Source of the DNA: Plasmodiophora brassicae
Taxonomy: Eukaryota
Length of the DNA stretch: 64,000 nt
Reading direction: 5' to 3'
Assembly (NCBI GenBank): GCA_036867785.1
Contig: CP145426.1
Span: 558,001 to 622,000, forward strand
Below the pieces are notes generated by a model, which was given only the letters and a program-made list of their open reading frames with translations, made no database searches and was not told the origin of the DNA. A program made the translations under genes and the position numbers. Positions 6,922 to 42,024 of this stretch are shown in pieces. How positions within the stretch are numbered: the first letter of the stretch is position 1; each line of letters opens with the position of its first letter.

Positions 6922-7117
6922 TGTCGAGGACAATGTCGTACCACCGGCACCCGGTGACGTCGTGACTGTGCGCGACTGCGTAACGTCCACGGCAGAGGCT
7001 CCGCCACTGACGCCGTTGTCGGTAACGACTTGGCAACCCCTGTTAAAACAGCGTTACGTCGCCGCCGTCTCGCGCCGATGTCGGTCGGAATAAATCACTT
7101 CGTTATCGTCTTCATTA
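6922..7117 (+). mobile_element. Solo LTR-A variant
   Basis: 196 bp, TG...TA ends, TSD GTCCG (6917-6921 / 7118-7122). Confidence 0.9.
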
Positions 7118-9900: not shown

Positions 9901-10622
9901 TTCCTGAAAAACGGAAGCATCACTCCAATCGTTGTACGTGTGGGATGGGTGCACCTGAGTCCGTCTATACTGTTGTAGCTGCTCATTCATGTTTTCCGCC
10001 AGGAATCTGCAGCCCCACTGCAATATGATCTGTCACAATGGAAATGTCAAAAGAGCAAAGGATCTCATCATTTGCGCGAACCTGCAACAACATTGGCAGA
10101 TAATAACAGGAACTTGTACGATTTCGGCAGCACGGCGGCCGTACACGGTTCACGTTATGGGCAGGCCAAACATGGCCTACATCACAATACCTATACTCGA
10201 TAAACGGGCAAGTTGAGAAAGACAATAATGGAGTGGATATATTACGTACGGCGTGTGCGGCGGACGTTACAGTGGCGACGTAGTCGCCGACGGTGTAACG
10301 GTTGCCAACGCCGGCGGGCACGGAGTCGCGGAGTGCGTGACGGCGTTCACGTGCTGCAGGCATGTGCTGCTGGTCGTAGTGGATACATTGTTCGACACGC
10401 CCCCTCCAGCAGCACACGGCCTGGGACTTGTGTCGATGATGCCGGCCAGGAGCAGGTTCGCATTGTGACGACAGAGCAAGATGTGTCAACCACACGGATT
10501 GACCGACTGAGGTCGGTCCAACGCCGTGGACGTTTATTGTAGTAGTGCGCTGCGGAGGAGCCCAATTAGGTGCCGGCTGAGTCGCCAAGACAGCGACTCG
10601 ACCGTGACATAATAGTCCCCTT

Positions 10623-13600
10623 TTACGGGCGGCGAAGACGGGGTCCGGGCTTGTCTGGGTACCGAGCGTGGAATGCCGCGAGCAGGCGATCGAATCCGCC
10701 GGTGCCCTGCAAGTTGGAGGCGGGTTCCCAGGTGCGCTCGGATGCAGGGTAGCCTTCCCAGTCGATAAAATACTGCAGCTTACCAGCACGATATCGAGAG
10801 TCCAGGACCTCCTTCACGATGAACAGCGGTTGGTCGTCGTCGTCGAGCAGAATCGTGGGTGGCGGAGGCTGCACACGATGGGGTATCACGTTCGGGACGT
10901 ACAGTTCCAGTTGGGATGCGTGGAAGACGTTGTGGATGCGGAAGGATGCCGGGAGCAGGAGTTCGTAGGAAACCGGATTAACGATGCGACTAACTTCGAA
11001 AGGCCCGAGCATTTGGACATCCAGCTTACAGCATGGCCGGCCAGTCGCAATTGCCCCTCGACGGAGCATGACCAACTCCCCGATCTTGAAGTCGGGATGA
11101 GGTCGGCGTTTCCGATCCGCAGCTCGTTTAATGGTGCTGACAGCACGATGCAGTTGGCGGTGTAGGTAACGGCGAATGGCCGTCAAGTTCTCCACGCGTT
11201 CATCGGCAGAGGGATTGGAGCTACCGTGTTTGCAAGGACGAGGGTCGCGTAGCTGAGGGTGGTAGCCGTAGTTCGCGAAGAAGGGAGACATTCCAGTGGA
11301 CGAATGGTCGACGTTATTGTAAGAGAATTCGGCCAGCGGCAATAATGGCTCCCAGTCGTCTTGCAGGTAGCACACATAACAGCGAAGGTATTGCTCTAAT
11401 ATCTGGTTGACGCGCTCGGTCTGGCCATCAGATTCGGGATGGCGGGATGATGACAGATGGCGTTCAACGCCGAGACGGCATAGGAGGTGCTTCCAGAACA
11501 ACGATACGAACTGGGGTCCGCGATCCGAGACAATGTCGTCGGGCAGGCCATGCAGACGGAACACGTTCTGAAGAAACAGATCGGCAAGCTGATCCGCGGA
11601 AATGGATTCTCGACACGCCACAAAGTGGGCCATCTTCGAATAACGGTCGACCACGACCAGTACAGAGTCATAGCCACGGGAGGAGGGGAGCTTGACGATA
11701 AAGTCCATTGAGATGGAGGACCAGAGAGCGTTTGGAATTGGTAGCGGAAGTAGCAGGCCGGATGGTCGATGGCGAGGAGGTTTGACGCGGCGACACGTGT
11801 CACAAGTCGCCACGTAACCCTTGATGAACGAGGACATCTTGGGCCACCAGAACTCGCGCTTGACGAGCTGCAATGTCTTGCGAACCCCAAAATGACCGGC
11901 GGTAACGTTGTCGTGAAGGCTGTGCAGAACTTCCAGCTTGCAGGCCTCACCAGCGACGACGAGAGCGGTTCCGTAATAACGTCTTCTGGACGAAGGGGTC
12001 ATCGGCTTGTTCGCGACGAATACGTTCGACAAGGGAGATGCCTGATGTACCGGTCTGGAGAAAGAGAATAGCTGGGTCCGGGCGGAAGAAGCGATGCGGT
12101 GGAAGCAGCTGTTGAGACATTGCTAGAATTTCTTCGTCGCCAGGCGAAGGTTGGTATTCCGGACGACGAGTGAGGGCGTCCGGCTTCCCATGAAGTCGCC
12201 CCGGACGATGATGAATCACGAAATCGAATTCGCTAAGCAGTTGAGACCAGCGAACCTGACGTCTGTTTAACTTGTGGGTAGACATGAAGTGGACGAGGTT
12301 ACGATGGTCGCTATGCACGACAGTTTGGTGCTGATCTGAGTCGAGGAACTGCCGCCACTTAGTGAACGCTTCCACAACCGCCAGGAGTTCCTTGTCGTAA
12401 ATGGGATAGCTAATCTCGGCAGCAATCAGCTTCCGCGAGAAGTAGGCGATCGGGTGCAACTCCCCATCTGCGCCGCCCTTTTGCGAAAGGACCATAGCGA
12501 TGGCAAAGTCTTGATGAAGACGATAACGAAGTGATTTATTCCGACCGACATCGGCGTGAGACGGCGACGACGTAACGCTATGTAACAGGGGCTTGCCAAG
12601 CCGTTACCGACAACTGCGTCAGTGGCGGAGCCTCTGCCGTGGACGTTACGCAGTCGCGCACTGTCACGGCGTCCCCGTGTGCCGGTGGTACGACATGATC
12701 CTCGACAAGTCTGAGGCGTCGGTCTCGACATCACACGGTTGATGAGGATCGAAATGGCCCAAGACAGGTGCCGATGTGAACGCAACCTTCAGAGAGCCGA
12801 ATGCAGCTTGAGCGTCAGCATCCCAGACAAAGGCGACACCGTCACGCGTCAGGTTTGTGAGTGGTAGAGCAATTTCCGCGAAGTGAGGAATAAATTTGCG
12901 ATAAAAATTGGCGAATCCCAAGAATACTTGGAGACCATGGATATCTCGTGGCGGTTGCCAAGACAGGATAGTGTCGATACGGGCAGGGTCGAGGCGCAGT
13001 CCGTCTCGAGAAACGAGGTAGCCGAGAAACTCGACCTCCTTGGCGCCGAAAACACACTTCTCCATATTAGCGGTAAGACTGCTAGCCCGAAGTCGTTCCA
13101 GGACGAGGCGCACATGGTGTTCATGGTCGGCGACGTTCGCAGAAAAAATAAGGATGTCGTCCAGATATACGACAACGAACTGGTCGAGGTAATCCTTGAA
13201 CATATCATTCATGAACGACTGGAACGAAGCCGGTGCGTTTGCGAGGCCAAACGGCATAACCAAATATTCGAAGAGTCCATACGGGGTGCGAAACGCCGTC
13301 TTCCACTCATCCCCTTCGCGGATACGAATTTGATTATACGCGCTGCGCAGGTCGATTTTCGTGAAGATCGTGGCCCGACTAAGGTTGGCAAGAAGTTGGT
13401 CAATAAGAGGCAGTGGATACCGGTTCTTGATCGTGGCAGAATTTAGGCCGCGATAATCGACACAAAGTCGCAGCGAGCCGTCTTTCTTGCGTACAAACAG
13501 AATGGGCGCACCGGCCGAAGAACGGGAAGGACGAATGAAATTCGACTTTAAATTGGCTTCCAGATACTGCTTGAGGGCCACCTGCTCTCGTTGGGAGAGA

Positions 13601-15024
13601 CCATATAACCGACAAAATGGTGGCTCCTTGCCGGGCTTAAGATCGATGGGGCAATCGGAAGCGCGGTGAGGAGGCAGGCACGCCGGGCTGCCAGTGGCGA
13701 ACACGTCCGAGAACTCGCGATAGGCGTCAGGAAGCGCAGGCCCGGAGACTGAGTCCGAGTCGAGTTCGGTCCAAGTATAATGCAGAAGGTAACAAGCTGC
13801 GTCGTCAACGATAGCATCCAGAAACGGCTCAGCGCTGATGAACGCAATCGAGGTTGATGACCCCGGGTCACCGTCTGGTGAGACCAGGGGCGTAAAGAAG
13901 GACTCGTCGGCGGCGTTCGAGATCAGGGGCTCCGCAGAGGCGCCGGAAGGGAGCCGCGTGAATGGAAGATAAGTCCACCCAAGGACCCAGGCCAGGGCGA
14001 CCAAGGATGCAGTCATCAAAAGATTAATAATGTGGCGACCACGAAGCCCGCCAGAGGGGCGAGGCGGCGAGAGGCGTTGTCCCGCCCCTCGACGGACGGG
14101 TCCACGGTGCCGGACGCACGACGGCTCGGGGCCCGAGGGGAACGATGATAACGGATCGTTGTGGCACGCTGCCACAGTAGCAGCGGCAGCGACCTCGGAG
14201 AGGCAGTCATGCGCGAGGGCGGGAGAGCTAGAGCTGTCGACAACAGCAGCAGGCGGTTCACTGTGACCGGCGGCCACCGTATCAGTGACAGCGACCTCCG
14301 AGAGGCAATCGGGAGCGATGACGGAAGCGCTAGAGCTATCGACGCCCGCAGCCGGGACGGTCCCGAACTCGGAGTAATCGTCGTCGTCCTCGTCGTCAGA
14401 AGCCAACTCAGGGAGGGCAATTACCTCCACCTCGGCTACCTCAGATGCTGAGGCAGTCGGCAACGTTTCGACTGATGCCGCCGAATCAACTGCATGCGTA
14501 GACGCAGGGAGGTCTCCTGCCGGGATTGAGATCCCCGCGATGCGAGGGCCGCGATGCTGGAGACGGTGGCTCCGCCAATCGATGTCAGGGTTTGTATCCG
14601 CCAACCACGGCAGGCCGAGGATGACAGGATGCTGCGGCGAATGGATCATGTTCAGGACGACGTCACTGTCGAAACATTCGTCGACGGTGATTCGTAGCGG
14701 GGCGGTTTCCTGAGTAATTGGGGCCAGATGACGGCCGTCAATGACGCGAACCGGAATAGCACGCGATTTGGCGCGAACAGGCACTTCGTGATGACGACAG
14801 AACGACCAGTCGATAAAATTGGACGTCGCGCCACAGTCTAACAAGGCGAGCGTACTGACGCGACGTGAGCCGATAACGAGACAGACCGGTACCAATAGAT
14901 GTGGTATAGATGTAGCCGACGTAAAGAATAAATCCGTAACATGAAGAAAGTCGGGTTCGGAACCAAAAGAAATGTTTACTGGGCGACTGGGGAACCCGTT
15001 CACAGACGCCCGGGCACATTTCCC
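10623..15024 (-). pseudogene. pol: Gypsy-1 pol (PR-spacer-RT-RH-IN-chromodomain), split into three ORFs
   Basis: ORFs 12664-15186, 11947-12495 and 10623-12032 carry the domains in order. The chromodomain reads IVKEVLDSRYRAGKLQYFIDWEGY...TWEPASNL. Confidence 0.9.
12512..12707 (-). mobile_element. Solo LTR-A (copia/TRIM family) inserted in Gypsy-1 RNase H
   Basis: 196 bp, TG...CA ends, TSD AGTCT. It splits TDASD|FAIA. Confidence 0.93.
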
Positions 15025-16097
15025 GGGGGACCAGCCTGCGGGACGCTGGCGCTGGGTGGGGGCGACGGAGGACCAGCAGCGGCAGGCCGCTCGGGGCACA
15101 GCGCGGAGCGGTGACCAACCTTGTGACAGTGCTGGCACGGAGGTCGCTTGGGGCAGGACGCAATGAAATGTCCAGCCTCGCGACAATAGTGGCAGACCAA
15201 AGGTTGCGCCCCTCCGACCTCGATAGCGTTGACAGCGGCGATCGGATACTTCGGTTCGAGATGGATCGCCATCTCGAACATCTTGTCGTACTCGGTGTAG
15301 TTGTAAATGAAGAGGGCATCAGAAAGTGCAGGGTGCAAGGACATGCGGAACTTTTCCGCCAAACGGGACGGACTCAGCCTATACAAGGGGTCGAGTTGTT
15401 GAACCTTCTTGTACAAGCGCTGGAACTCCCGCGCATGGTGAACCACACTGGAAGTCTGCTTCAAATTGTCAAAATCAGCTTCGACCCGCTTTAACGACGG
15501 CTCCGGAAAATCATGAAGCAGGGCGGATGCCACGTCCGCCATTGACGCGTCCTCGGACAGGTCAAGATAAGTCTCCAAGGCGTATCCTTTCAAGGCCGTC
15601 GTCAAGATGCATTGCACAGCGTCGGAAAGCGGACTGGTAGACGTTAACGGCGTCTGGGTGATCCGCGCGAAAGCGGTCAACCAACGCATCGTCGACAGAC
15701 CGTCCGCCCCCGAAAATCGCGGGATATCGTGGGACTGGACAACAATAGGCGGCGGCGGCGGCGGGGACACGGGATGCTGCGTCGACGGGGCGACAGAATT
15801 CGGCAGAGACGAAGCCACAGAAGCGTGGAGAGGCAATAGGGAAGGCACAGCGCTGATGACCGGGGGATCCGACGAGTCGTTGCGCACTTCGGGAGACGAG
15901 ACAGCTGGCGCTGCGGGGGGGCTGGCCCTAGGCAGCGAGCCATGCGCGAATTTCAACTGGGCTAAGAGGTCGAGGATCTCCGCCTTCAGGTCGCGCAGCT
16001 CGATAGCGCCAGCAACATCCGCCGCAGCTGCAACATCCGGATTCGCGGACGAGGGCGGGTCCGACAACGCCGGAATCAACCCATCACCTCCCGCCAT
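15000..16097 (-). CDS. gag: Gypsy-1 Gag with two CCHC zinc knuckles
   Basis: MAGGDG...IPRFSG...LKQTSSV...CHYCREAGHFIASC...CQHCHKVGHRSALC. Confidence 0.85.
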   Translation of the reverse strand: MAGGDGLIPALSDPPSSANPDVAAAADVAGAIELRDLKAEILDLLAQLKFAHGSLPRASPPAAPAVSSPEVRNDSSDPPVISAVPSLLPLHASVASSLPNSVAPSTQHPVSPPPPPPIVVQSHDIPRFSGADGLSTMRWLTAFARITQTPLTSTSPLSDAVQCILTTALKGYALETYLDLSEDASMADVASALLHDFPEPSLKRVEADFDNLKQTSSVVHHAREFQRLYKKVQQLDPLYRLSPSRLAEKFRMSLHPALSDALFIYNYTEYDKMFEMAIHLEPKYPIAAVNAIEVGGAQPLVCHYCREAGHFIASCPKRPPCQHCHKVGHRSALCPERPAAAGPPSPPPSASVPQAGPPGNVPGRL

Positions 16098-18150
16098 AGC
16101 TGCGATGATACAGGGCCGAGACGAGACGAGACGATAGTCGATACGGGCCGAGACGAGACGAGACGATAGTCGATACGGGCCGAGACGAGACGAGACGATA
16201 CGCGTACGACCGAAGAGTAGTCGGTCAAAATGTGACGACAGAGCAAGATGTGTCAACCACACGGATTGACCGACTGAGGTCGGTCCAACGCCGTGGACGT
16301 TTATTGTAGTAGTGCGCTGCGGAGGAGCCCAATTAGGTGCCGGCTGAGTCGCCAAGACAGCGACTCGACCGTGACACGCATGATACGAGGTGCTGAGAGC
16401 GGGCTTCGTGAGGTAGTCTGCAGCCATCTCGGCGGACGGGCACTTGTGGACCACGATCAAACTGGCCTCGACGGCCTCCCGGGTGTAGTGAAACTGCACC
16501 TCGATGTCCTTCGTGCGATCATCCATCCGACGATAGCCAGACCAGGCCTTCGCGCCTTGATTGTCCTCGTATACGATCGTCGGACTGGAGCGTGCGAAGC
16601 CGATTTCGGTCAGGAATGACCGGATCCAGGCCAGCTGGCGGGTAACAGCACACAGCGACTTGATCTCTGCATGTGTGGACGATAAGCTAACTTTGACTGC
16701 GCCCAGGTCTTGGCGACGTGACTGCCAGTGCACGGGGCCGCCAGCCAGCAGGATGATGTGGCCGGAGCGCGACCGTCGCGTGTCAGGGTCGGATGCCCAA
16801 TGAGCGTCGGCGTATGCGATCAGACGATCTTCGGGCTGGCGTTCGTATCGGATGCCGTGCGTCATGGTGCCGGCGAGGTACTTAAGAACGCGTTGCCCCG
16901 CACGCCAATGCTGGATGCCGGGATTCGAGGAGAATTGGGCCAGTACATTCGTTATGTACGCGATGTCGGGACGGCATCGATGGGCGAGCCATGTCAGGCA
17001 GCCAATGAGTTTGAGGTACGGCTTGGTCGCCATTTCGTCGCGGTCGAGGTCGCTTTGTGGACTCATTGTCGTTAATAGGTGAACGCCAGGCTGGTGCGGC
17101 GTGTCGACCGGATGACAATGCGACATGTTGAAGTCGCTCAACACCTTCTCGATGTACTCGGCTTGGTCAAGGGTGATGGCGCCGGTGCCAGGTTCGCGTC
17201 GGATGCGCATGCCAAGCAGGGTCGACGGTTCACCTTGATCGGTGATCTCGGCCATCGTGGAGAGCTTCTCGAGAACGGATTCCGCGAACGGGACGTCATT
17301 GTACGCCAGCAGACCGTCGTCGGTGTGCACCGACATGATCATGAACTTTCCATCGCGATCGTACCGGAAGACGCAGGGGTCCGCGATGATCGATTCGAAT
17401 CCGAGTGATAACAGCATCTCCCGAAGCGTCTTGTACCAACGTTCGGCGCCTTGTTTCGTTCCATAAAGGGCCTTTTGCAGTTGACGAACTCGGTACGGGA
17501 CGTGATGATCGGTGAAGCCATCCGGCTGACGAATGTAAACATCATGGAGCATGTCGGCGTTCAGGTATGCGGCCACCCAGTCGACCTGGCGAAGATGCAG
17601 GCCGTGCTGCGCCGCGAGTGCTAGGATAACGAGGAACGCAGTGGCACGGGCGGTCGGCGCGAACGTATCGTCGAAGTCGATGCCGGGGCGTTGTCGGAAG
17701 CCCTGAGCACAGAGTCGGGCGGTGAACTTGCGGATGCCACCGTTGCCACTGAGCGAGGACTTCACTCGGAACACCCACTTGGCGCCAACAGCGATCTTAC
17801 TTTTCGGCAGCTCGATTAGCGGGCCGAACGTGTTCTTGGCGTCCAGTGTTGCCATCTGGGTGACGGCGGCGTCCCACCAGTGGCCAGCGAAAGGTGATGA
17901 GAGGGCATCGGCCATTGAGTTGGGTACGGGAATGTCGGTCGCTTTCAGCTTCGACAGGTCGGGTCGTGGTAGACGGGCTGGGTCGATCGGGGCGGATACC
18001 TTGGCTCGACATGCCTTGGCAGCGGCGCCGCGACATGTCGGACGGTTGGACCTGATGGCCTGATCGATCAGACGGCGCTCCTCAACCTGCTGCCAATGCC
18101 GGATCAGTCGGCGGGAGCGACGAGGAGGGCGCTGTGTCGGGGACGTTAGG

Positions 18151-24100: not shown

Positions 24101-24991
24101 GCACAATTCCCCGAAAGGAAGACCGGCAACAGTATGTGGCGTTGCTTGTGACGGATCTGAGATATTTCTTCTGATTTGGCCACGCTTGCAGTTATACACA
24201 GCCAAATTAACAAGAGAAGGCGCACTTTGGGAATTTCTGACAGTTCCTCTTCCAGAAAAGTCAAGGTTGTGAAGAAGGCCATTGTCGGGCCAAGTCCCTA
24301 CTGATGGATTTCCTGGGCAGTTTCAAGGATGCCATCGACAACACCGGCATCGACGCCGACCACGACGTGTTCCGGGATGAACGCTCGTTTGATCAAGTAT
24401 CCGCTGACATGGCGACTTTCAACGCCGTCCTGTTGGAGGACGTGACACGAAAGCTGCGGTTCTCTATGATGGATGACCGATTCCGGCTCGTGTCTGACAT
24501 TCCCGACCCTTGGTGACCAATAGTTGAATACAACGAATTATTTCGGTGCAACTATTCATGTTTTAAGCCATTTTTGCAACCTAGCGAGCATATATTTCGG
24601 AGAAGTTGATATGTATTAAAGATACTTACGGTGGAAACAAATATTTGCATCACTCGGAAGAAACACTTGGATCACTCGGAAGAAATTTTTGCATCAACAG
24701 GAAGAAATAAGTGGATCAAGCGGAAAAAACATGTGGATCATGATCCATGTATTATTTCCGTCATGACTGATCATGGGAATAACGTGGGCTTTCAGTGAAT
24801 GGTGACCCGTGGATCATTCGGAACGCCTTCGGGAGCAGCATCTTCTAATTGCGTTGCATGAACGTGACCGTCGCAGAACTTCTCGATAAATTCCTTCGTC
24901 AAGCGCGAGCAACCGAACACATCGCGCAAATGCTGACAGCCATCTGGAGTAAACTCGTCATAGAACTGCGGCAAGTAACTATTCAGCAGAT
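18151..24991 (-). repeat. Right arm of the large inverted duplication
   Basis: Reverse complement of 1-6841. Here the copia and Tc1 elements continue past the arm boundaries. Confidence 0.97.
21479..22427 (-). mobile_element. TRIM copy in the right arm of the inverted duplication
   Basis: Mirror of 2565-3513. Confidence 0.95.
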
Positions 24992-27088: not shown

Positions 27089-28068
27089 CCGCCATCCCGA
27101 ATCTGATGGCCAGACCGAGCGCGTCAACCAGATATTAGAGCAATACCTTCGTAATTATGTGTGCTACCTGCAAGACGACTGGGAGCCATTATTGCCGCTG
27201 GCCGAATTCTCTTACAATAACGTCGACCATTCGTCCACTGGAATGTCTCCCTTCTTCGCGAACTACGGCTACCACCCTCAGCTACGCGACCCTCGTCCTT
27301 GCAAACACGGCAGCTCCAATCCCTCTGCCGATGAACGCGTGAAGAACTTGACGGCCATTCGCCGTTACCTACACCGCCAACTGCATCGTGCTGTCAGCAC
27401 CATGAAACGAGCTGCGGATCGGAAACGCCGACCTCTTCCCGACTTCAAGATCGGGGAGTTGGTCATGCTCCGTCGAGGGGCAATTGCGACCGGCCGGCCA
27501 TGCGGTAAGCTGGACGTCCAAATGCTCGGGCCTTTCGAAGTTAGTCGCATCGTCAATCCGGTCGCCTACGAACTCCTGCTCCCGACATCCTTCCGCATCC
27601 ACAACGTCTTCCACGCATCCCAACTGGAACCGTACGTCCCGAACGTGATACCCAATCGTGTGCAGCCTCCGCCACCCACGATTCTGCTCGACGACGACGA
27701 CCAACCGCTGTTCATCGTGAAGGAAGTCCTGGACTCTCGATATCGTGCTGGTAAGCTGCAGTATTATATCGACTGGGAAGGCTACCCTGCACGAGCGCAC
27801 CTGGGAACCCGCCTCCAACTTGGAGGGCACCGGCGGATTCGATCGCTGCTCGCGGGCATTCCACGCTCGGTACCCAGACAAGCCCGGACCCCGTCTTCGA
27901 CGCCCGTAAAAGGGGATTATTATGTCACGGTCGAGTCGCTGTCTTGGCGACTCAGCCGGCACCTAATTGGGCTCCTCCGCAGCGCACTACTACAATAAAC
28001 GTCCACGGCGTTGGACCGACCTCAGTCGGTCAATCCGTGTGGTTGACACATCTTGCTCTGTCGTCACA
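27089..28068 (+). mobile_element. 3' fragment of a second Gypsy-1 copy (integrase C-terminus, chromodomain, PPT, 3' LTR)
   Basis: Near-identical to the reverse complement of 10464-11444. LTR at 27923-28068; frameshift in the chromodomain. Confidence 0.92.
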
Positions 28069-28899: not shown

Positions 28900-30585
28900 T
28901 TGTATATAACTGTATAAACGTCCACGGCGTGGACCGTCGACTTCAGTCGGTCAATCCGTGTGGTTGACACATCTTGCTCTGTCGTCACACTTTGACCGAC
29001 TACCCTTCTGTCGTATCGTCTCGTCTTATCTCGGCCCGAAACGACTCGTATATTATCGTACCGCGTCAACATTGTCTCGTCTGGTATAGTATCGCAGTCA
29101 TGACAGGAGGCGATGTGCTGATTCCGTCGTTGGCGGATGTCCCATCGTCCGCGAATCCGGATGTTGCGGTTGCGTCGGCGTCGAGCTGCGCGACATTAAG
29201 TAGGAGATTCGCGTTCTCCTATTGCAGTTGACACTCGCGCAGGGTGTTGTGCCCCGCGCAGGGCCGCTCAACCCGCCTCAGCTCAACACCACCGCCGATT
29301 TACCCGACAACTCTCAGTCCTCTTCGGACTATTCCGCCCCGCCTGCCTTATCGTCACTACGCGTTTCTGTTGCCTCGACGTCCCTAAAGGACCCCTCTGG
29401 CGTGCCTCAGCAGGATCCTGCCCCCTCGACGGCAGTGCATATTGGCACGTCGCCCGTTGGGGCTCCAGTGACAGCGCCACGGGTGTCCCCGGCCCTTTAA
29501 CGTCTATTGTTGTCCAATCCCAAGACACCTTGCTTTTCTCCGGAACGGATGGTCTCTCGACAACGCGTTGGTTGACCGCCTTTCTCGGATCAACCAGACG
29601 TCGTTAACGTCTACCTGTCCTCTATCCGCTGCTGTGCAATGCGTCTTACCAACGGCCTTGCGAGGTCCAGCTCTTGAGACTTACCTTGACTTGCCCGAGG
29701 ACGCGTCTATGGTGGGCGTGGCGTCCGCCCTGCTCCATGACTTCCCGGAGCCTTCGGTAAAGCAGATTGAAGCGGATTTTGACAACCTGAAGCAAACTCC
29801 AAGTGTCTCCAGTCACATGCGGGAATTCCAACGCCTGTACAAGCAGCTTCAACGATGTGACCCCTTGTACAGACTGAGTCCGTCCTGTTTGGCGGTGCAC
29901 CCTGCGCTCTCTGAAGCCTTGTTTTTCTATAATTTCACAGAGTACGACAAAATGCGCGATATGGCGATTCATCTTGAGGCAAAATACCATTAGCTTGTAT
30001 TGATAATACATACAGAAGTCCCTATTGCCGCCGTGGACGCTGGCGGCGCTGGAAGGGCACAACTCCTGACCTGCCACTATTGTCATGAAGTTGGGCATTT
30101 TATTGGGTCCTGCCCGAAGAGGCCACCGTGCACGCACCGTCATAACTCATAAGGTTGGCCACCGCTCGTCGCTGTGTGCAGAGCGGTCCGCTGCTGCTTG
30201 CTCCGACAGCCCTCTCCACGTTACTGATGTGTTCTTTATGACGGCCTCCTCAATACCGCATCTGTTCGTACCGGTATGTTTCGTGATCGGCTCACGCCGC
30301 GTTAACACCTTCGTCTTGTTAGATTGTGGCGCGACTTCAAACTTCACCGACTGGTCGTTCTGTCGTCACCACGAAGTACCGGTTCGCTCTAAATCGCGAG
30401 CGACTCCTGTTCGCGTCATCGACGGCCGTCAACTGTCTCCAATAACTCAGGAAACGGTCCCAATACGCGTTACCGTCGACGGGGGGTTTCGACAGTGACA
30501 TTGTTCTGAACCTGATCCATTCGCCTCAGCACCCTGTCATCCTCGGGCTGCCTTGGTTGGCGGATACAAACCCTGACATCGATTC
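28900..30585 (+). pseudogene. Degenerate Gypsy-1-related element (LTR 3' part, PBS, gag, protease)
   Basis: LTR end GTCGTCACA at ~28989 followed by CTTTGACCGACTAC; gag and [10 protein letters not shown] fragments with stops and frameshifts. Confidence 0.85.
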
Positions 30586-31441: not shown

Positions 31442-32946
31442 TTGTGGAAAGCCAGTTACGTTCTTAGCGACAGTGATGTCTGTGTGTAAAATTCAGTTAT
31501 GATCCCCGTGAGCGGCAGAGCGCGTTCGGAGCGCGATTGGGGTTTCACTCTGATTGCACACCTGGTATCCTCCTGAACCTGAGCGACGCCAGCAGTAGGT
31601 CAATGACTCAGTAGAAACTGCAAAGCAGAATGCCATGTGAGACAACCTGTGATTCAATGGTGTCATCGCGACGCTTTCGCGGCCGTCCCCGGCCACGCTT
31701 GGCGGCACCAGCATTCAACTCGGGACCACCGTTGCCATCAGAATGGGCGGCAGGCGAGGCAATGCCAGATGTCTTCTTCGAAGCGACAATTTCTTTGGCG
31801 CGTTGTGAGCGTTGCTCCTCTTCGCCTTCTTTCATACTGTACGCCCGCTTTGGGATCGACCGCTTCTTCATCGGCAAGTGGCGCAGAGCATGGAAGTCGC
31901 AGCACGCACGATGGTCGCTTCCGACAGGAGCAGTACGAACTGTTTACGCGTATAGCAGTAATGGTTTGTCTCGCGGACACACAAGACGCAGCCTCGAACA
32001 CTTCGCTTAAGACGCTCGTTCGTTTCCGGATCTTGGATCAGCTTCTCCATCGGGTGATGGACGGAGCTCCTGTGCAATTGCGGAATCAGAACACAATGTC
32101 AACCACGTTTGGGATGTTACCTACCTGATCGTCCAGCCTTCATCGGTCCTAAAGACGGAAAGAGCATTACGTCGAGGTATCTTGGGGATGAGGTCCCCGA
32201 GATTTTGAACGACGCTTCTCTCTGCAAGTACACCTAGGAACGTCGACAGCCTCGTTGAGAACGTCTCGGCCGGCCTGGATCACGAAGTCTTCTATGGTCT
32301 CCTCTGAAACAAGGTCTCGGCGTAACGCTTTGAAAGTCGACAAGGCCGTCTTCTCGTCCTGAAGGTCGTGTCTGCATTTCCAGTACCTTGGAATATTCAT
32401 TCAGTCAACAGTGGTAAACAAGACTGAGAGCACGTGACTACCTGAAAGCAATACAGGTGTCCAACCCGCAGGCTTGGAAGAGCAGGTGGATGACGTACTT
32501 GACCTCGAATGGAAGGCTGTTTCGTGGGTACCTCAACTTATTGACATCGAAAGTTGCCTTGTCGACGCAACGATCTCGTCGTCGAGGACTAACCAGGTGT
32601 TCTCCTTGACGAACAGTTTCCGCGAAGCGGCGACAATCGCTTGCTCAAGAAATCGATAGTTGGAGTATAGTCTGTGGTGTCCAGGAACGTAATTATTAAT
32701 GTCACAGGAGCCGGACCGCCCGACCGTCTCGAACGCCCGGAGATGGTTGACCAGCGTCCGGAACCGTTTGGAGGGCAGCGCCCTCGTTCCGAACAGCGAG
32801 GCGCCGTACTTGCAGCGCCTGATCGATCCTGGCGGTTGTGGCCTTTTGTCACGATCAGGCAAGCTGATGCAACGAACGCTTTGACGGACTGGCGAAGTCC
32901 GTCGCGGGGTTCGGGATTTATTCAGTTATCACAGAATAGTCCTCTT

Positions 32947-35900
32947 CTAGCGATTGGGTCTCCGCCGGTTTCGGGAGCGAGGGCCAGGTTTATCGGGATA
33001 TCGAGCATGAAATTCAGCAATCGCTTGGTCCAGGCCTCCTGTCCCATGGAGATTGCCCGCGGGTTCCCAGGTGCGATCGGACGGGGAGTATCCTTCCCAA
33101 TCTATGAGATATTGCAACCGCCCCGACCGGTATCGGGAATCCAAGATCGACTTAACGATGAACAGGGGCTGGTCGTCATCTTCCAATACAATGGGCGGCG
33201 GCGGTGGCTGTTGGCGATGTGGAAGGACATTAGGCGTATACGGTTCCAGCTGTGACACATGGAAGACGTTATGTAGGCGCGAGGTAGGAGGCAGCTTCAC
33301 TTCGTATGCGACGGGGTTAACTGTGCGAACCACTTGGAAGGGTCCCAGCAGACGGTCATCCAGTTTCCCGCACGGGCGGCCAGTCGATAAGGTTCCACGC
33401 CTGAGCATGACGAGATCGCCCACCTGCAGTGGTGGTGGTTCGCGGCGACGGCGATCCGCAGAGCGCTTCATAGCGTCGACCGCCCGTTGCAGTTGGCCCT
33501 TCAAGTAGCGGCGAACCTTCTCAAGGAATTCGGCACGCTCATCGGCGGCTGGGTTACAGACTTGGCCATTCCTGGGTCGAGGCTCCGTCACCCTTGGATG
33601 AAACCCGTAGTTGGCGAAAAACGGCGACATGCCGGTGGCCGAATGGTCGGCGTTGTTGTACGCGAACTCGGCCATAGGCAGAAGTTGCAGCCAGTCGTCC
33701 TGCATGTAGCTAACATAGCAGCGTAAGTATTGTTCGAGGATCTGGTTCACGCGTTCCGTCTGGCCGTCGGATTCCGGGTGCCGGGATGAAGACAAGTTCC
33801 GTTGGATACCAAGACGGTCCAGTAAGTGCTTCCAGAAGGCCGACACGAACTGGGGCCCCCGGTCGGAGACGATGTCGTCCGGTAGGCCATGCAGGCGGAA
33901 TATCTGCTGCAAAAACAGGTCGGACAGCTCGACCGCTGTGAGGGTCTCCTTGCACGGAATGAAGTGGGCCATTTTCGAAAACCGGTCGACGACGACGAGG
34001 ACCGAATCGTAGCCGTCGGAAACTGGAAGCTTGACAATTAGATCCATTGAGATCGATGACCACAGAGAACTCGGCAAGGGAAGAGGCAGCAGGAGCCCGG
34101 ACGGTTTGTGGCGCGGAGACTTGCTTCTCTGACAAATGTCGCAGGATGAGACGTACAGTTTGACGAAGGCCCTCATGCCAGGCCACCAAAATTCACGCTG
34201 GACAAGCCCAAGCGTTTTGCGGATACCAAAGTGACCAGAGGCCCTATTATCGTGGAGTTGCCGGAGGATCTCGATCTTGCATTCGTCTCCGGAGACGACC
34301 AAGGAGCGTCCTTTGTACAGGAGGCCGTCTCTCAGGCAATACTTCCTACCTTGAGGTCGGTCGAGCAGACCGGCAATCTTGGCGACGAACGGATCACTCG
34401 CTTGGTGTCGTCGGATACGGTCTAGGAGAGGCTCGGACGGAGCCGCCTCCGCGTGGACGGTGAACGCGTCCACCACGGGGGACGGAACTAGGCGATGAAG
34501 CGGGAGCAGTTGGAGAGATTGTTGCAGGATGCCTTCTTCAGACGCCGTCGGGACGTACTCCGGGCGGCGCGTCAAGGCGTCAGGTTTACCGTGCAAGCGG
34601 CCCGGTCGGTGCTGAATCATGAAGTCGAAGCCGCTAAGCAGTTGGGACCATCGGATTTGGCGCGGATTAAGCTTGTGGGTCGTCATGAAGTACTTGAGGT
34701 TGCGGTGGTCGCTGTGCACAAGTGTCTGATGTTCATCCGAATCCAGGAACTGGCGCCATTTCTCGAAGGACGCAACAACGGCCAGGAGCTCTTTGTCGTA
34801 GACCGCATATCGGATCTCAGCGGGGTCCAGTTTCCTCGAAAAGAACGCCAGAGGGTGTAAGTCCCCGTCACGGCCCCGTTGTGAGAGGACCATGGCAATG
34901 GCGAAGTCGGAGGCATCCGTTTCAATCTCGCACGGCACGCTAGGATCGAAGTGGGCGAGGACCGGAGCGCGTGTGAACGCGCTCTTCAGAGTTGCGAAGG
35001 CGGTCGAAGCAGTCTCGTTCCAGATAAATTCGGTTTCCCCGCGAGTAAGGTTCGTCAAGGGAAGTGCGATCTCCGCGAAATGCGGGATGAACTTTCGGTA
35101 GAAGTTGGCGAACCCAAGGAAGACTTGCAGCCCGTGGAGGTCACGCGGCGGGGCCCACGCGAGTATTGTGTCTACTCGGCTGGGATCCAACCGGAGGCCG
35201 TCCTTGGACACTAAGTAGCCGAGGAATTCGACCTCCGGTGCGTCGAACAAGCACTTAGACAGTTTGGCCGTCAGGCGCGCGGAGCGTAGACGTTCGAGCA
35301 CCAAACGCACGTGCTGTTCATGTTCCTCAGCATTCTTGGAGAAAATCAAGATGTCGTCAAGGTAAACAACAACGAAACGGTCAATGAAGTCGCTGAATGT
35401 CTCGTTCATGAAGGCTTGAAAGGATGCCGGGGCGTTGGCAAGCCCGAAGGGCATAACCAGGTACTCGAACAATCCGTACGGTGTCCGGAATGCTGTCTTC
35501 CATTCGTCACCTTCGCGAATGCGGATCTGGTTGTACGCACTTCGAAGGTCGATCTTGGAGAAGACCGTTGCTTGACCGAGTGTCGAAAGCAGCTGGTCGA
35601 TGAGCGGAAGTGGGTAACGGTTCTTCACGGTGACCGAGTTCAGGCCTCGGTAATCAACGCAAAGCCGTAACGAACCATCCTTCTTCTTCGCGAAAAGGAT
35701 CGGCGCGCCGGCAGATGAACGCGACGGCCGTATGAAGTTCGACTGGAGGTTATCTTCCAAATACTTCTTGAGGGCTACCTGTTCGCGGGGAGACAAGCCG
35801 TAGAGGCGACAGAATGGAGGCTCCGTCCCCGGTTTCAGGTCGATCGAGCAGTCAGAGGCGCGGTGCGGCGGTAAGGATGTGGCGGTGGCCTCGTCGAACA

Positions 35901-37281
35901 CGTCGGCAAAATCCTGGTATTTTTCAGGTATCTTCGTCTGCTCTGACTCGGTGTCCTCGGTCCACGTATAATGGATGAGGTAGCACTGAGCGTCGTCCAT
36001 GAGTGCGTCCAGGAACGGTTCGGCGTCGACTAGATGGATGGGAACGTTGGCCGCCAGAGGTTCTTCAGTGCTTGGTGCCGGCAAGGGAACGTGGTCGATC
36101 CGCGTCCCGTCGCCTTGATTAGAATCCGTGGGCCGTACGTCGCACGACGACTGTGGAGCATCTCCGGCTAGAACGTCAGGGCCGGCGTTCGGCGGGGCGA
36201 TCGGACAGGCGTCGTCAGATGACGTGTTTAGATAAGCACGAAGGTCGACGCGTGCGGGTTCGCGGCACATAGTGACGAAGGCAAGCGCCCAAGCGGCCGC
36301 CACGATGGATGAGCACATGAACAGGCTGACCACCTGGCGTGCCCTGGAACCGTCGTCCAAACGACAATCTGGTAGACGTCGACCGGCTCCCCGCCTGTGT
36401 CGCTGCTCCCGCGCCGGCGACGTTAGCCAGCCTGTCTGGTCGGGGAACGATTCGAGCTCGAGGCAGTTCGCAGGGGTGTTACCGGTGTCAGCCGTTTCCA
36501 GGTCGCCAGCGGCTTTGTCCTGAGTCTCAATTGCGGCTGTCGCCAAGGACTCTGCCACCCGGCGTTCATCGTTGGCCGCAGGCGGCAATGGTGTCACGAT
36601 CAGGTCTTGTGCGGAAGTTGGATCTGGATGTTGTTTTGTGTTAACAGGCGCCTGGGCGATGAGCGGAGCTGCACTAGAGGCGTCCAGGGCCGGATAACGG
36701 CAGTCGTCGTGTGGCGCAGCCACGCTTGCCTCGGTTGTCTCAGCTTCTGCATGGCCAGGATCCGCCACAGTTGTCGGCGTTGACGTTGACGGCGAGGGGG
36801 GGCACTGGCGCGGCGAGACGAGCCGCCGGCGCCAATCCACATCTGGATTAGTCTGGGCTAGCCAGGGCAGACCCAGGATGACGGGATAGGTCGGCGAATT
36901 GATCAGATTCAGGACGATCTCACACGAGAACTGGGCGTCCACCGTCGTTCTCAACGGCTGAGTCTCCTGTGATATAGGTGCGAGCTGGCGGCCGTCGACA
37001 ACGCGGACAGGTATCGGACGATGCGTCGGGCGGGTAGGCAGAACGTGGAGCCGCGCGAAGGACCAGTCGATAAAGTTGCTAGTCGCGCCACAGTCGATCA
37101 AGGCCGTTGTCGAGATACTTTCGGACCCGGTGTATATGGTCATCGGAAGTACGAGATGCGGGACAGAGCGGGCGTGGAGAAACATGAGATCGCTTATTTG
37201 AACAGGGTCGGGTTCGGATGACAATGCAGAGTTTACTGGGTGGCCGGCGAACCCGTTGGCGGTCACCCTTGGACATTTCCC
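32947..37281 (-). CDS. pol: Gypsy-2 Pol (PR-RT-RH-IN-chromodomain), expressed by a probable -1 frameshift
   Basis: 1453-codon open frame with LIDCGA, YLDD, TDASD, integrase HHCC/DDE/GPF and a chromodomain. It overlaps the gag end at G GGA AAT. Confidence 0.95.
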
Positions 37282-38111
37282 GGTGCAACCGGCGGCCGTT
37301 TCGGGCAATCCGCGATCCGGTGGCCATCTTCTTTGCAGTAGAAGCAGAGGCCGTCCTTGCGGGCACGCTCACGGGCATCGGCGGCGACAACCTTCGGAAC
37401 GGGGTAGCGCGGGCAGAGGTGTTTCGCCTTTTTGACCATCTCGTCGAAGTCGGTGATCATGTCCTCGAACAGTTTTTCCGACAAGGCAGTATGCAGCGAC
37501 TTCCGGAACTTCGACGCGCGCCGGGCCGAACTCATCTTGAAGGTTGCATCCGCGCGCTGAAGCGCTTGATACAAATTGTTGAACATCAACACATGCTCTT
37601 CGACAGGTTCGGTCTGGGTGAGGTTGTCGAAGCACTCCTCCAGCTGTTCGAACGTCGGCACCGGAAACCATTTTGACATCGCGTAGGACAGGTCGGCCAT
37701 CGTGGCGTCGTCCGGCAGCCCGAAATAGACTTCCAACGCCGGGCCTTCCAGCGATCTAAGAAGGGCGCTGTGCGCCGCCGGCGGAAGGCGGGTCGTCGAT
37801 GACGGGAGCTGCAGCGTCCTTGACAGACACTTCAGAAAGTCGCGGGAGTTCGTGGAACTGTCGCGAATACGCCCGGTAAAGCGGGGCAGGTGGATCTGGT
37901 GGTCGACGATGTGTCGGGATGTCGGCGACGGCTCGCTCGGCGGCATCTTGTCGGGCAGCGAGCGATTTATCGCTGTCCCAACGGCATCTTCGACCCGGTC
38001 GGCCACTACGGACTGCATAGCTTTCAGCTGGTGCAGCATGTCGCTGACAGTGAGCGTGAGGTCCCGCACTTGATCTGCCAGTGCGGCGATCTGGTCCTCG
38101 CTCGTTGTCAT
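37263..38111 (-). CDS. gag: Gypsy-2 Gag
   Basis: MTTSEDQ...LPRFTG...LTQTEPV...[14 protein letters not shown]. Confidence 0.88.
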
Positions 38112-38144
38112 CGCGAACACACCGGTAGACGGACAGGAAACGGG

Positions 38145-38270
38145 ACGGCAGGAACGGAGCGGGCGGAACGGAGCGGGCGGAACGGAGCGGGCGGAACGGA
38201 GCGGGCGGAACGGAGCGGGCGGAACGGAGCGGGCGGAACGGAGCGGGCGGAACGGGGCGGGCGGGACGGC
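38145..38270 (-). repeat. 14-bp tandem repeat (GGAACGGAGCGGGC)n in the Gypsy-2 5' leader
   Basis: About 8 copies read directly between the PBS and gag. Confidence 0.9.
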
Positions 38271-38573
38271 GGTGACCGTTGGTTAGTCCGTCAAAATGTC
38301 ACGATCAGGCAAGCTGATGCAACGAACGCTTTGACGGACTGGCGAAGTCCGTCGCGGGGTTCGGGATTTATTCAGTTATCACACCTTTGAGTAATCCGCG
38401 AGGCGCTGCTTGAAAACGGCCGACACGAAGTAGTCTTCCATCAACAACTCGAAGCGTGGCGGATCGCTCGAGATATTCCACCCATTGGTCCCGTTGAACC
38501 GCTTCGTAACTGCTGCTTGAACTGACCTACGAGCGCTCGCACTGCTCGACGCCGGCGCCATGGCAACAGCTCT

Positions 38574-41500: not shown

Positions 41501-42024
41501 TCCGCCAGTGTCGATCCCGCCTCGGCATCTCCTGCACAACGTCAAGGCCTCGGTTGCGACGTGCTGTCACTAACCAAACCTGTTCGTCCGTCTGCCCGCC
41601 CGCCCGTCTCTCCGTCCGTCTGCTAATCCGTCCGTCTGCCCGTTCGTCCGTCTGTCCGTCCGTCTGCCCGTTCGTCCGTCTGTCCGTCCGTCTGCCCGTT
41701 CGTCCGTCTGTCCGTCCGTCTGCCCGCCCGTCTGCCTGCTCACCGTTCGTCTGTCCGTCCGTCTGCCCGCCCGTCTGCCTGCTCATCCGCCTGTCCGTTC
41801 GTCTGTCCGTCCGTCTGCCCGCCCGTCTGCCTGCTCATCCGCCTGTCCGTTCGTCTGCGACCCATCAGAGGCCATCCGTCTGCCCTTCTATCCCGGACCC
41901 GTCAGAGGCCCATCGCTAGAAGGGGACTATTATGTGAGGACTGTCCGGAATAAACCGAGAACCCCGCGACGGACTTCGCCAGTCCGTCAAAGCGTTCGTT
42001 GCATCAGCTTGCCTGATCGTGACA
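38574..42024 (+). mobile_element. Non-autonomous mini-LTR element (Gypsy-2-related 92-bp LTRs) with an internal 147-bp tandem array; outer copy
   Basis: LTRs 38574-38665 and 41933-42024, TSD GCTCT, PBS TTTTGACGGACT, PPT AGAAGGGGAC. About 9 units plus a (GTCC/GCCC)-rich tract. Confidence 0.93.
38874..40331 (+). mobile_element. Second copy of the same mini-LTR element nested inside the first
   Basis: LTRs 38874-38965 and 40240-40331, TSD GCAGA. Six full 147-bp units start at 39024, 39171, 39318, 39465, 39612 and 39759. Confidence 0.93.

What the first reader, a model, noticed from the sequence alone, without database searches (positions are those of the whole stretch)
16219..16300. tRNA-independent (Tf1-type) self-priming supported by covariation, plus a U3/R hairpin that may mask the 3' copy
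Seen: neither gypsy has a TGG-type tRNA PBS. The Gypsy-1 PBS TTGACCGACT is the complement of AGTCGGTCAA in its own LTR. Gypsy-2 (38285-38340) and the mini-element use TTTGACGGACT / AGTCCGTCAAA, so the G/C swap is compensated. The target starts at an Inr-like (T/C)CAGT about 30 nt after AATAAA (TATAAA in the copy at ~28913). A third covarying copy lies just upstream in U3 (GACCGAC vs GACGGACT) and forms a hairpin with the same target. Known: S. pombe Tf1 primes from its own 5' end. Inference: the hairpin forms only at the transcript 3' end, where U3 is transcribed, and would stop that R copy competing for the PBS.
Basis: partly seen in the sequence, partly recalled or inferred. Interest (0 to 1): 0.8.

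Follow-up and report, generated by a model that had tools for sequence, protein, structure and literature searches.

The report
Self-priming retrotransposons with anti-primer hairpin
Two young gypsy-type jumping genes with very short end repeats appear to start copying themselves with the first 10-11 letters of their own RNA, as the yeast element Tf1 does, and a small conserved hairpin just upstream can hide that primer wherever the upstream part is present.

Summary
Both chromoviruses on the minus strand (Gypsy-1, LTR 146 nt; Gypsy-2, LTR 87 nt) and a non-autonomous mini-element lack a TGG-type PBS. The 10-11 nt that follow the 5' LTR are the exact complement of a stretch inside that LTR. None of 20000 random interior windows reaches this length.

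That stretch ("B") begins 30-32 nt after an AATAAA/TATAAA box, at a C|A step. A U3 arm ("A") pairs with B in a 7-8 bp hairpin.

Inside the window the covariation is one compensated G/C swap, which is not significant alone. The real support comes from 80 related metagenome loci. Many unrelated B/PBS sequences keep the complementarity and the box-to-B spacing. In 6 of 20 families a 7-11 bp hairpin again uses B as its 3' arm (p<0.05 each).

Tf1/sushi-type self-priming is a known mechanism, so the elements are new members of it. The U3 anti-primer hairpin turned up in none of my literature searches, but the key primary papers are not held.

Its role, masking the 3' R copy or something else, is untested. 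No RNA data were available, so the TSS is inferred. Empty-site contigs show that Gypsy-2 is a genuine, polymorphic insertion.

The parts
10464..16376 (-). Gypsy-1, a full-length chromovirus (gag, PR-RT, IN-SH3-chromodomain) with 146-nt LTRs and TSD ATGCG, inserted into a copia-type element
16231..16376 (-). Gypsy-1 5' LTR (146 nt, TG..CA)
10464..10609 (-). Gypsy-1 3' LTR, 100% identical to the 5' LTR. It carries the same box, U3 arm and target (target at 10499-10508).
16300..16305 (-). AATAAA box, 30 nt before the start of the self-primer. Read as a TATA-like box; this is an inference.
16279..16285 (-). U3 arm 'A' (GACCGAC), the 5' arm of the hairpin with the self-primer
16266..16275 (-). Target 'B' (AGTCGGTCAA): the predicted self-primer and first bases of the transcript
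16219..16228 (-). PBS 'C' (TTGACCGACT), 2 nt after the 5' LTR and the exact complement of B
10610..10625 (-). Gypsy-1 polypurine tract region (AAAAGGGGACTATTA) abutting the 3' LTR
32847..38383 (-). Gypsy-2, a full-length chromovirus (gag 37263-38120, pol 32947-37308, intact 1453-aa ORF) with 87-nt LTRs and TSD AAAGG. An empty-site allele is present in 4 of 4 public runs laid.
38297..38383 (-). Gypsy-2 5' LTR (87 nt)
32847..32933 (-). Gypsy-2 3' LTR (87 nt, 100% identical; target at 32880-32890)
38367..38372 (-). AATAAA box, 32 nt before the start of the self-primer
38346..38353 (-). U3 arm 'A' (GACGGACT). The loop TCGCC is at 38341-38345.
38330..38340 (-). Target 'B' (AGTCCGTCAAA), the predicted self-primer
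38285..38295 (-). PBS 'C' (TTTGACGGACT), 1 nt after the 5' LTR
38575..42024 (+). Non-autonomous mini-element array. Its LTRs of about 91 nt lie at 38575-38665, 38875-38965, 40241-40331 and 41934-42024. The last 66 nt of each are identical to the Gypsy-2 LTR and include the A arm, B and U5. The Gypsy-2 PBS follows the first two LTRs (38667-38677, 38967-38977). The interior is 147-bp tandem repeats.
28913..29001 (+). Variant Gypsy-1-type 5' LTR end. It has TATAAA, an A arm with a 3-nt insertion, B at 28945-28954 and the PBS at 28992-29001. 42-bp tandem repeats lie upstream.
27923..28068 (+). A further full Gypsy-1 LTR copy (100% identical), at the 3' end of a truncated plus-strand copy. B is at 28024-28033.

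Best explanation
Gypsy-1, Gypsy-2 and the mini-element are young retrotransposons of the Tf1/sushi branch of the chromoviruses. They prime minus-strand DNA synthesis with their own RNA rather than a tRNA.

Proposed mechanism, with each step marked:
1. Transcription starts about 30 nt after the AATAAA/TATAAA box, at the A of (C/T)CAGTC. The first 10-11 bases (B) are therefore the 5' end of the RNA. This is inferred.
2. B folds back onto the complementary PBS that sits 1-2 nt after the 5' LTR. The complementarity is shown; the fold is predicted.
3. By analogy with Tf1, RNase H cuts after B and the freed 3' end is extended. This is inferred from the literature.
4. The plus strand later copies the primer, so the PBS is rewritten from B in every cycle. 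This explains why B and the PBS always match.
5. A U3 arm (A) just upstream of B pairs with B in a local hairpin. The arm lies upstream of the predicted start, so the hairpin cannot form at the 5' end of a correctly started RNA. It can form wherever U3 is present: the 3' end of the RNA, read-through RNAs, and plus-strand strong-stop DNA.
6. I read it as an anti-primer that keeps B off the PBS in those contexts.

My odds: self-priming about 0.8. The hairpin is under selection about 0.7. Its role is sequestering B where U3 is present about 0.45. The confidence figure given for this explanation (0.6) is for the statement as a whole.
For: Complementarity in the window:
- Exact 10- and 11-nt complements between the post-LTR site and the LTR.
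- 0 of 20000 random interior windows reach that length in either family.
- There is no TGG after either LTR.
- RNA folds starting at B pair B with the PBS, with z -2.2 and -3.1 and P>=0.92 in 6 of 6 families.

Evidence for the start site:
- A TATA-like box lies 30-34 nt before the start of B in G1, G2, the 28913 copy, the mini-element, L003, L004, L076, L007, L010 and L040. It lies 37-43 nt before B in L070 and in 7 more distant families (L013, L032, L036, L053, L062, L063, L069). No such box is seen in L008 or L046.
- B starts at a pyrimidine/purine step in 15 of 18 families (my count).

Related families:
- Loci show the same LTR-end/PBS complementarity with unrelated sequences. Examples are L003, L004 and L076 with 11-12 nt and L010 with 13 nt.
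- They include compensated changes among fungal-like families: L013, L032, L036 and L062.
- Automatic criteria give 24 hits on the sense strand against 5 on the antisense strand.

Placement:
- The pol proteins carry the Tf2-1-type SH3 domain and a chromodomain.
- In a quick tree they sit with fungal and vertebrate relatives, apart from plant chromoviruses.
- Published accounts of Tf1: the first 11 bases pair with the PBS and RNase H cuts between bases 11 and 12 (PMC7175516, passages). Self-priming is a common feature of Tf1/sushi elements (bioRxiv 10.1101/2022.12.06.519325 and PMC6317226, passages).

Hairpin:
- Stems of 7-11 bp whose 3' arm is B occur in G1, G2, L004, L076, L008, L010 and L073. 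The p values are 0.063, 0.022, 0.0035, 0.002, 0.0005, 0.005 and 0.006. That is 6 of 20 families at p<0.05.
- The stretch from -32 to the end of B is more structured than shuffles in 10 of 18 families. A window downstream of B is not.
- With U3 included, the arm captures B even in cis in L004, L076 and L008, and in G1 under DNA parameters.
- The 66 nt that the mini-element shares with Gypsy-2 include the arm.
Against: - No transcript start, primer cleavage or strong-stop DNA was observed. All 24 listed runs are kept as Logan contigs, and the 4 laid behave as DNA assemblies.
- No genome is held, so a host tRNA or tRNA fragment matching the PBS cannot be excluded directly.
- Within the window the covariation is one event between sister families.
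- The hairpin with B as its 3' arm is absent or weak in 13 of 20 families, including near relatives L003, L007 and L040. It is therefore not required for self-priming.
- In G2 and L010, and in G1 with RNA parameters, the PBS beats the U3 arm when both are present.
- The two flanking duplexes of the published 'pretzel' are only partly seen.
- The AATAAA box could also be a poly(A) signal. That would leave a very short R if the start is where I place it.
- I picked the set of outside families by eye from the lists, before the automatic check.
Confidence: 0.6

Rival explanations
1. The primer is a host RNA (a tRNA, a tRNA half or another small RNA) complementary to the PBS. The matching LTR stretch has another cause.
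For: No genome was available to scan for tRNAs. Half-tRNA priming exists in copia-type elements (PMC6317226, passages).
Against: - There is no TGG at the PBS.
- The window has no tRNA gene and no Rfam match.
- The LTR carries the exact complement in both families, and the G/C difference is matched.
- Many related families have entirely different PBS sequences, each matched by its own LTR at a fixed distance from the TATA-like box. A host primer would not produce that pattern.
Confidence: 0.05
2. The hairpin serves 3'-end formation rather than primer masking. In these very short LTRs the A/T box would act as the TATA box in DNA and as the poly(A) signal in RNA. The hairpin, which is present only in 3' transcripts, would hide cleavage sites and push cleavage downstream of B so that a usable R remains.
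For: - AATAAA lies only 30-32 nt before B, in LTRs of 146 and 87 nt.
- The hairpin sits between the box and the rest of R.
- Several distant families have a hairpin that ends just before B without covering it: L013, L062 and L069.
Against: - Relatives with LTRs of about 290-420 nt and room for separate signals (L004, L076) have the strongest B-containing hairpins.
- Their box is TATAAA or TATATA, not AATAAA.
- No 3' ends were observed.
Confidence: 0.15
3. The hairpin acts on DNA. Plus-strand strong-stop DNA carries U3, B and a 3'-terminal PBS copy, so it can fold back on itself and self-prime a dead-end product. The A-B hairpin would keep the 3' end free for the second strand transfer.
For: Under DNA parameters the U3 arm captures B in 4 of 6 families when U3 through the PBS is folded as one strand: G1, L004, L076 and L008. 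Fold-back self-priming of strong-stop DNA as a known hazard in retroviruses is recalled, not read here.
Against: In G2 and L010 the PBS still wins. There is no experimental handle here. Most self-priming families lack the arm.
Confidence: 0.15
4. The palindrome around the start site is a DNA-level promoter element, or it has no function and persists by chance and descent.
For: It straddles the predicted start site. G1 and G2 are sister families, so they share it by descent. The label is only moderately clustered on the tree: 5 changes, with 8 of 500 shuffles as low.
Against: The arm sequences differ completely among G1/G2, L004, L076, L008, L010 and L073 while the pairing is kept. That does not fit a protein-binding site. 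A chance origin does not fit 6 of 20 families at p<0.05.
Confidence: 0.1

Closest known systems
Tf1 and Tf2 of Schizosaccharomyces pombe, and the Tf1/sushi group (Tj1, Tosmo1-3, Tcn1, sushi-ichi, Maggy, Skippy and others)
   Same: - A chromovirus pol with a chromodomain.
- No tRNA-type PBS.
- The PBS lies right after the 5' LTR and is complementary to the predicted first 10-11 bases of the transcript, with a TATA box upstream.
- Self-priming is described as a common feature of the group (PMC7175516, PMC4600332, PMC6317226 and bioRxiv 10.1101/2022.12.06.519325, passages read).
   Different: - The LTRs are far shorter, at 87 and 146 nt. I recall the Tf1 LTR as about 350 nt; this was not read here.
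- The distance from primer to PBS is only 34-37 nt.
- The published three-duplex 'pretzel' is only partly recognisable.
- A U3 arm pairs with the self-primer. The passages I could read do not mention such an arm, and the primary papers (Levin 1995 and 1996, Lin and Levin 1997 and 1998, Butler 2001) are not held.
- The closest named proteins come from a plasmodiophorid, not from a fungus or a vertebrate.
TAR and poly(A) hairpins at the U3/R border of retroviral LTRs
   Same: A stable local hairpin lies near the start of R, and its presence or effect differs between the 5' and 3' ends of the same RNA.
   Different: As I recall them, the retroviral hairpins lie wholly inside R and so are present at both ends. 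Here the 5' arm lies upstream of the predicted start, so the hairpin can exist only where U3 is transcribed or copied. This is a functional analogy only.
TRIM and LARD-type non-autonomous LTR elements
   Same: The mini-element at 38575-42024 has short LTRs, a PBS and a PPT but no coding capacity. It shares its cis signals with an autonomous partner.
   Different: It shares a self-priming PBS and primer with Gypsy-2 rather than a tRNA PBS. It is arranged as LTR-interior-LTR arrays with 147-bp internal tandem repeats.

Membership tests
Tf1/sushi self-priming LTR retrotransposons | The sequence immediately downstream of the 5' LTR is complementary to a stretch inside the LTR instead of to a tRNA 3' end | tested here: met
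   10 nt in Gypsy-1 and 11 nt in Gypsy-2 and the mini-element, all exact. 0 of 20000 random interior windows reach this length. No TGG is present.
Tf1/sushi self-priming LTR retrotransposons | The complementary LTR stretch is the very 5' end of the element's mRNA | tested here: inconclusive
   There are no RNA data. Indirect support: an AATAAA/TATAAA box 30-32 nt upstream and a C|A step at the start, with the same spacing in 6 related metagenome families (L003, L004, L076, L007, L010, L040).
Tf1/sushi self-priming LTR retrotransposons | A three-duplex 'pretzel' RNA structure, made of the primer-PBS duplex plus two duplexes between PBS-adjacent and LTR sequences (bioRxiv 10.1101/2022.12.06.519325, passage) | tested here: inconclusive
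   The central duplex is present. The duplex with the sequence just upstream of the PBS is modestly better than shuffles in G1, G2 and the mini-element (p 0.019-0.043). The duplex with the downstream sequence is not (p 0.47-0.76).
Tf1/sushi self-priming LTR retrotransposons | RNase H cleavage after the self-primer (between bases 11 and 12 in Tf1) | not testable with these tools
   This needs biochemistry. The RNase H domain is intact in Gypsy-2.
Tf1/sushi self-priming LTR retrotransposons | No host tRNA is complementary to the PBS | not testable with these tools
   No genome is held. The window has no tRNA gene and no Rfam match.
Tf1/sushi clade of chromoviruses (Ty3/gypsy) | PR-RT-RH-IN order, a chromodomain at the integrase C-terminus, and grouping with fungal and vertebrate elements rather than plant chromoviruses | tested here: met
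   - Pfam hits: RVP_2, RVT_1, RT_RNaseH, Integrase_H2C2, rve, SH3_Tf2-1 and Chromo.
- The best named hits are from Plasmodiophora (62-68%), then fungi, amphibians and fishes (42-50%).
- In the quick tree the plant and algal rows split off at support 99, and G1 and G2 fall inside the fungal/vertebrate group.
- Caveats: no named reference elements (Tf1, sushi-ichi) were in the tree, the careful tree search did not finish, and the root is at the midpoint.

The most novel reading that the evidence does not exclude
The U3 arm is a selected 'anti-primer' that makes self-priming depend on where the RNA starts. Only a transcript that begins exactly at the first base of the primer lacks the arm, so only that transcript can pair primer with PBS. 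Any molecule that carries U3 has its primer locked in a local hairpin. Such molecules are the 3' end of the genome, read-through RNAs and plus-strand strong-stop DNA. This would be a built-in 5'-end sensor for reverse transcription. It arose or was kept in several divergent families, and it is tightest in elements with miniature LTRs.
Probability: 0.35. Interest if true: 0.7.

Novelty: new variant of a known kind. Interest (0 to 1): 0.5.

Why it matters
Self-priming is the one well-studied alternative to tRNA priming in LTR elements, and it has been dissected only in fission yeast. These elements show the same logic compressed into an 87-nt LTR, in a host whose closest named relatives are plasmodiophorid protists.

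They also add a feature that none of my searches turned up: a U3 arm that competes with the PBS for the primer. If the arm is functional, it shows how a self-priming element avoids mis-priming from its second copy of the primer or from badly started RNAs. It would also give a simple rule for annotating such elements: box, hairpin, primer, PBS.

The families are young and polymorphic, and one has spawned an abundant non-autonomous parasite that keeps the same cis signals. The predictions can therefore be tested on living material.

Tried and rejected
- Whole genome of the window: not held. No genome-wide tRNA scan and no family-wide LTR census were possible.
- RNA evidence: no RNA holder is listed. 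All 24 runs are Logan contigs. The 4 runs laid (X1, X3, X6, X7) cover the flanks and the empty site and behave as DNA. They show no starts or ends of molecules (table 6 empty).
- Primary Tf1 papers and the Esnault and Levin review: not held. Supplementary files were not consulted. The PBS tables in the additional files of PMC6317226 might list similar hairpins.
- A generic search for the triple (primer, PBS complement and upstream arm) over all loci was not discriminating: 43 hits on the plus strand against 45 on the minus strand. A loose positional filter was also not discriminating: 0.49 against 0.39 hits per kb. Only the stricter criteria were: ACA end, TATA-like box 27-45 nt upstream and k>=9, giving 24 against 5 hits.
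- Counting primer bases paired upstream in the minimum-energy fold has little power, with combined p 0.08 for near families and 0.92 for far families. I rely on the stem-length test instead.
- The first run of the energy test used wrong coordinates for L040 and cut the L004 stem. It was redone.
- L070 was dropped as ambiguous: it is AT-rich, and the pair appears under the criteria only on the other strand. L067 has a degenerate post-LTR region with no PBS.
- A structure-aware count of A-B pairs across G1 and G2 was not possible on the MAFFT alignment, because the arms are out of register.
- Organism: a host aquaporin has no close named relative, the best being 44% to plants. The organism is therefore not settled.
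- The careful tree search did not finish in the time allowed.
Full report
**Anatomy**

The region 10-42 kb of the window is a nest of transposable elements.

Gypsy-1 lies on the minus strand at 10464-16376.
- It has two 146-nt LTRs that are 100% identical, start with TG and end with CA. They are flanked by a 5-bp duplication, ATGCG.
- It is inserted into a copia-type element. The 1806-aa ORF that runs through its 5' LTR is an accident of that nesting.

Gypsy-2 lies on the minus strand at 32847-38383.
- It has two identical LTRs of only 87 nt, a duplication AAAGG, a gag ORF and an intact 1453-aa pol.
- Both pols carry protease, RT, RNase H, integrase, the Tf2-1-type SH3 domain and a chromodomain.

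A plus-strand array at 38575-42024 is a non-coding mini-element.
- Its LTRs share their last 66 nt with the Gypsy-2 LTR.
- It also shares the Gypsy-2 PBS and a similar polypurine tract.

Two further Gypsy-1-type LTR copies lie at 27923-28068 and 28914-28989.

Yes.
- After the Gypsy-1 5' LTR comes TT and then TTGACCGACT (16228..16219). The LTR holds the exact complement at 16275..16266.
- After the Gypsy-2 5' LTR comes T and then TTTGACGGACT (38295..38285). The complement is at 38340..38330.
- Neither site has the TGG of a tRNA-type PBS.
- I took 20000 random 14-nt windows from each element's interior. None has a complement in its LTR as long as the real site.
- The complementary stretch, which I call B, begins 30 nt (Gypsy-1) and 32 nt (Gypsy-2, mini-element, 28913 copy) after the first base of an AATAAA or TATAAA box, at a C|A step.
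- Just upstream, GACCGAC (Gypsy-1) or GACGGACT (Gypsy-2) pairs with B in a 7- or 8-bp hairpin with a 4-5-nt loop.

**How strong is the covariation?**

Inside the window it is one event.
- Of the 11 B-PBS pairs, one differs on both sides between the Gypsy-1 and Gypsy-2 types. 65 of 500 shuffles score as high.
- The two families are sisters in the RT-RNase H tree.
- If the element self-primes, the plus strand copies the primer and so rewrites the PBS in each cycle. B/PBS agreement is then automatic. That makes it diagnostic of self-priming, but it is not evidence of selection.
- Agreement between the U3 arm and B is not automatic, so it is the more telling part.

**Outside families**

A search of metagenome contigs with a pol alignment gave 597 confirmed relatives, of which 80 loci were kept.

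By eye, from the lists, I accepted 16 LTR-end/PBS junctions. One search added L038 and L073. I later dropped L070 as ambiguous.

An automatic rule required a complement of at least 9 nt, the PBS 0-3 nt after ACA, and a TATA-like box 27-45 nt before B. It finds 24 hits on the sense strand and 5 on the antisense strand. It recovers 12 of my 16.

The B/PBS sequences are unrelated among families:
- AATTCGAATCAA in L003.
- ATTCCGGTTCAA in L004.
- AAGGTGAACAA in L076.
- TCAGTGGTAATAT in L010.
- ACGCTACCA, ACGCAACCA, ACGCTACCT and ACGCAATCTA in L032, L036, L013 and L062.

Each is matched by its own PBS.

The spacing from the box to B is 30-34 nt in the window's elements and in L003, L004, L076, L007, L010 and L040. 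It is 37-43 nt in L070 and in seven more distant families. L008 and L046 show no box.

So the 5' edge of B, defined only by complementarity to the PBS, sits at a fixed distance from a TATA-like box. This is my main argument that B is the transcript's 5' end.

**The hairpin outside the window**

The test required a contiguous stem whose 3' arm overlaps B by at least 5 nt. It compared the observed stem with 2000 shuffles of the 45 nt upstream.

| Family | p value |
|---|---|
| G2 | 0.022 |
| L004 | 0.0035 |
| L076 | 0.002 |
| L008 | 0.0005 |
| L010 | 0.005 |
| L073 | 0.006 |
| G1 | 0.063 |

- The other 13 families are not significant. That gives 6 of 20 families below 0.05.
- L001 and L002, for which only 3' LTRs are on the contigs, show the same arms as L076 and L004.
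- The arm sequences are all different, so what is conserved is the pairing.
- Seven of the eight hairpin families fall in one clade of 14 rows of the quick tree, and L008 falls outside it. The label needs 5 changes, and 8 of 500 shuffles need as few.
- More loosely, the stretch from 32 nt before B to the end of B folds better than shuffles in 10 of 18 families. The Fisher p values are 7e-10 for near families and 7e-5 for far families.
- A control window downstream of B does not fold better than shuffles. Some distant families have a hairpin that ends just before B (L062, L069, L013).

**What the hairpin could do**

Folding shows a switch.
- If the strand starts at B, B pairs with the PBS with probability at least 0.92 in 6 of 6 families.
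- If 40 nt of U3 are added, the arm takes B away from the PBS in L004, L076 and L008 under both RNA and DNA parameters. It does so in G1 under DNA parameters only.
- In G2 and L010 the PBS still wins.
- For the window's own elements the arm can therefore matter mainly where the PBS is not next door.

The same logic fits read-through RNAs and plus-strand strong-stop DNA. A role in placing the poly(A) site in these miniature LTRs cannot be excluded either. None of these roles was tested.

**Comparison with what is known**

- Tf1's first 11 bases pair with its PBS, and RNase H cuts between bases 11 and 12 (PMC7175516, passages).
- Self-priming and a three-duplex 'pretzel' are described as shared by Tf1/sushi elements of fungi, vertebrates and some non-seed plants (bioRxiv 10.1101/2022.12.06.519325, PMC6317226 and PMC4600332, passages).
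- The window's elements meet the sequence-level criteria and the domain and tree criteria. The pretzel is only partly seen.
- None of the passages I read, and none of my full-text searches, mention a U3 arm pairing with the self-primer. The primary papers are not held, so I cannot say it is unpublished.

**Activity**

- Four public runs each hold a contig that joins 32841 to 38384 across the element, with 5 letters shared. This is the empty site (table 5).
- Each of the four runs also holds a single interior contig of about 5.3 kb, at 5-12 times the word depth of that empty-site contig. The tool warns that depth is not copy number.
- Several different sequences abut the LTR edges, which points to other insertion sites (tables 7 and 8).
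- Pieces that cover the PBS and the LTR end and run on into mini-element sequence have depths of 117, 397 and 2113 in X1, X3 and X7.

**Host**

- The closest named pol relatives are Plasmodiophora brassicae proteins, at 62-68% identity.
- A host aquaporin in the window has no close named relative.
- The organism is therefore probably a plasmodiophorid-like protist, but this is not settled.

**Verdict**

Tf1-type self-priming is the best explanation, at about 0.8, and it is a known mechanism. The U3 anti-primer hairpin is real, recurrent and probably selected. Its function is open.

Noticed in passing
window 32847-32933 and 38297-38383: The LTR of the autonomous, intact Gypsy-2 is only 87 nt. 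It still holds a box, a hairpin, a primer and U5. From memory this is near the lower limit reported for autonomous LTR elements; I did not check this in print.
   Followed up: partly
window 38575-42024: A non-coding mini-element is arranged as LTR-interior-LTR-interior arrays with 147-bp internal tandem repeats. It shares 66 nt of LTR, the PBS and a similar PPT with Gypsy-2. In 3 of 4 runs laid, pieces that run from the shared PBS into mini-element sequence have much higher word depth than the Gypsy-2 interior.
   Followed up: partly
window 32841/38384: An empty-site allele of the Gypsy-2 insertion is present in all 4 public runs laid. The insertion is therefore polymorphic or absent in those samples (table 5).
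   Followed up: yes
window 28536-28927: Nine copies of a 42-bp tandem repeat replace the upstream U3 of a Gypsy-1-type LTR that keeps the box, primer and PBS. The U3 arm of this copy has a 3-nt insertion and a weaker hairpin.
   Followed up: partly
window 16377-21175 and 2565-7117: Copia-type (RVT_2) elements in opposite orientations share repeats. Gypsy-1 sits inside one of them, and an ORF stays open across its LTR by accident.
   Followed up: no
window 30772-30983 and 42149-42235: Long perfect inverted repeats are built around AAACCGTAATATATTACGGTTT, with arms of 20 and 29 nt. They may be ends of a DNA transposon or a MITE. A DDE_3 transposase ORF lies at 24792-26705.
   Followed up: no
L001-L005, L026, L040, L076 (3' LTRs): A conserved motif CAACACCAGT(C/T)T follows the self-primer directly in the near metagenome families. 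The primer ends in CAA and the PBS starts with TTG in most near families.
   Followed up: partly
L013, L032, L036, L062: Fungal-like relatives show a series of compensated primer/PBS changes: ACGCTACCT/AGGTAGCGT, ACGCTACCA/TGGTAGCGT, ACGCAACCA/TGGTTGCGT and ACGCAATCTA/TAGATTGCGT.
   Followed up: partly
window 42883-57814: Host genes lie beside the transposon nest, in DNA of 64-76% G+C: an Mre11 DNA-binding domain (42883-43914), a MIP aquaporin (45385-46803) and a large BEACH-domain protein (50847-57814).
   Followed up: partly
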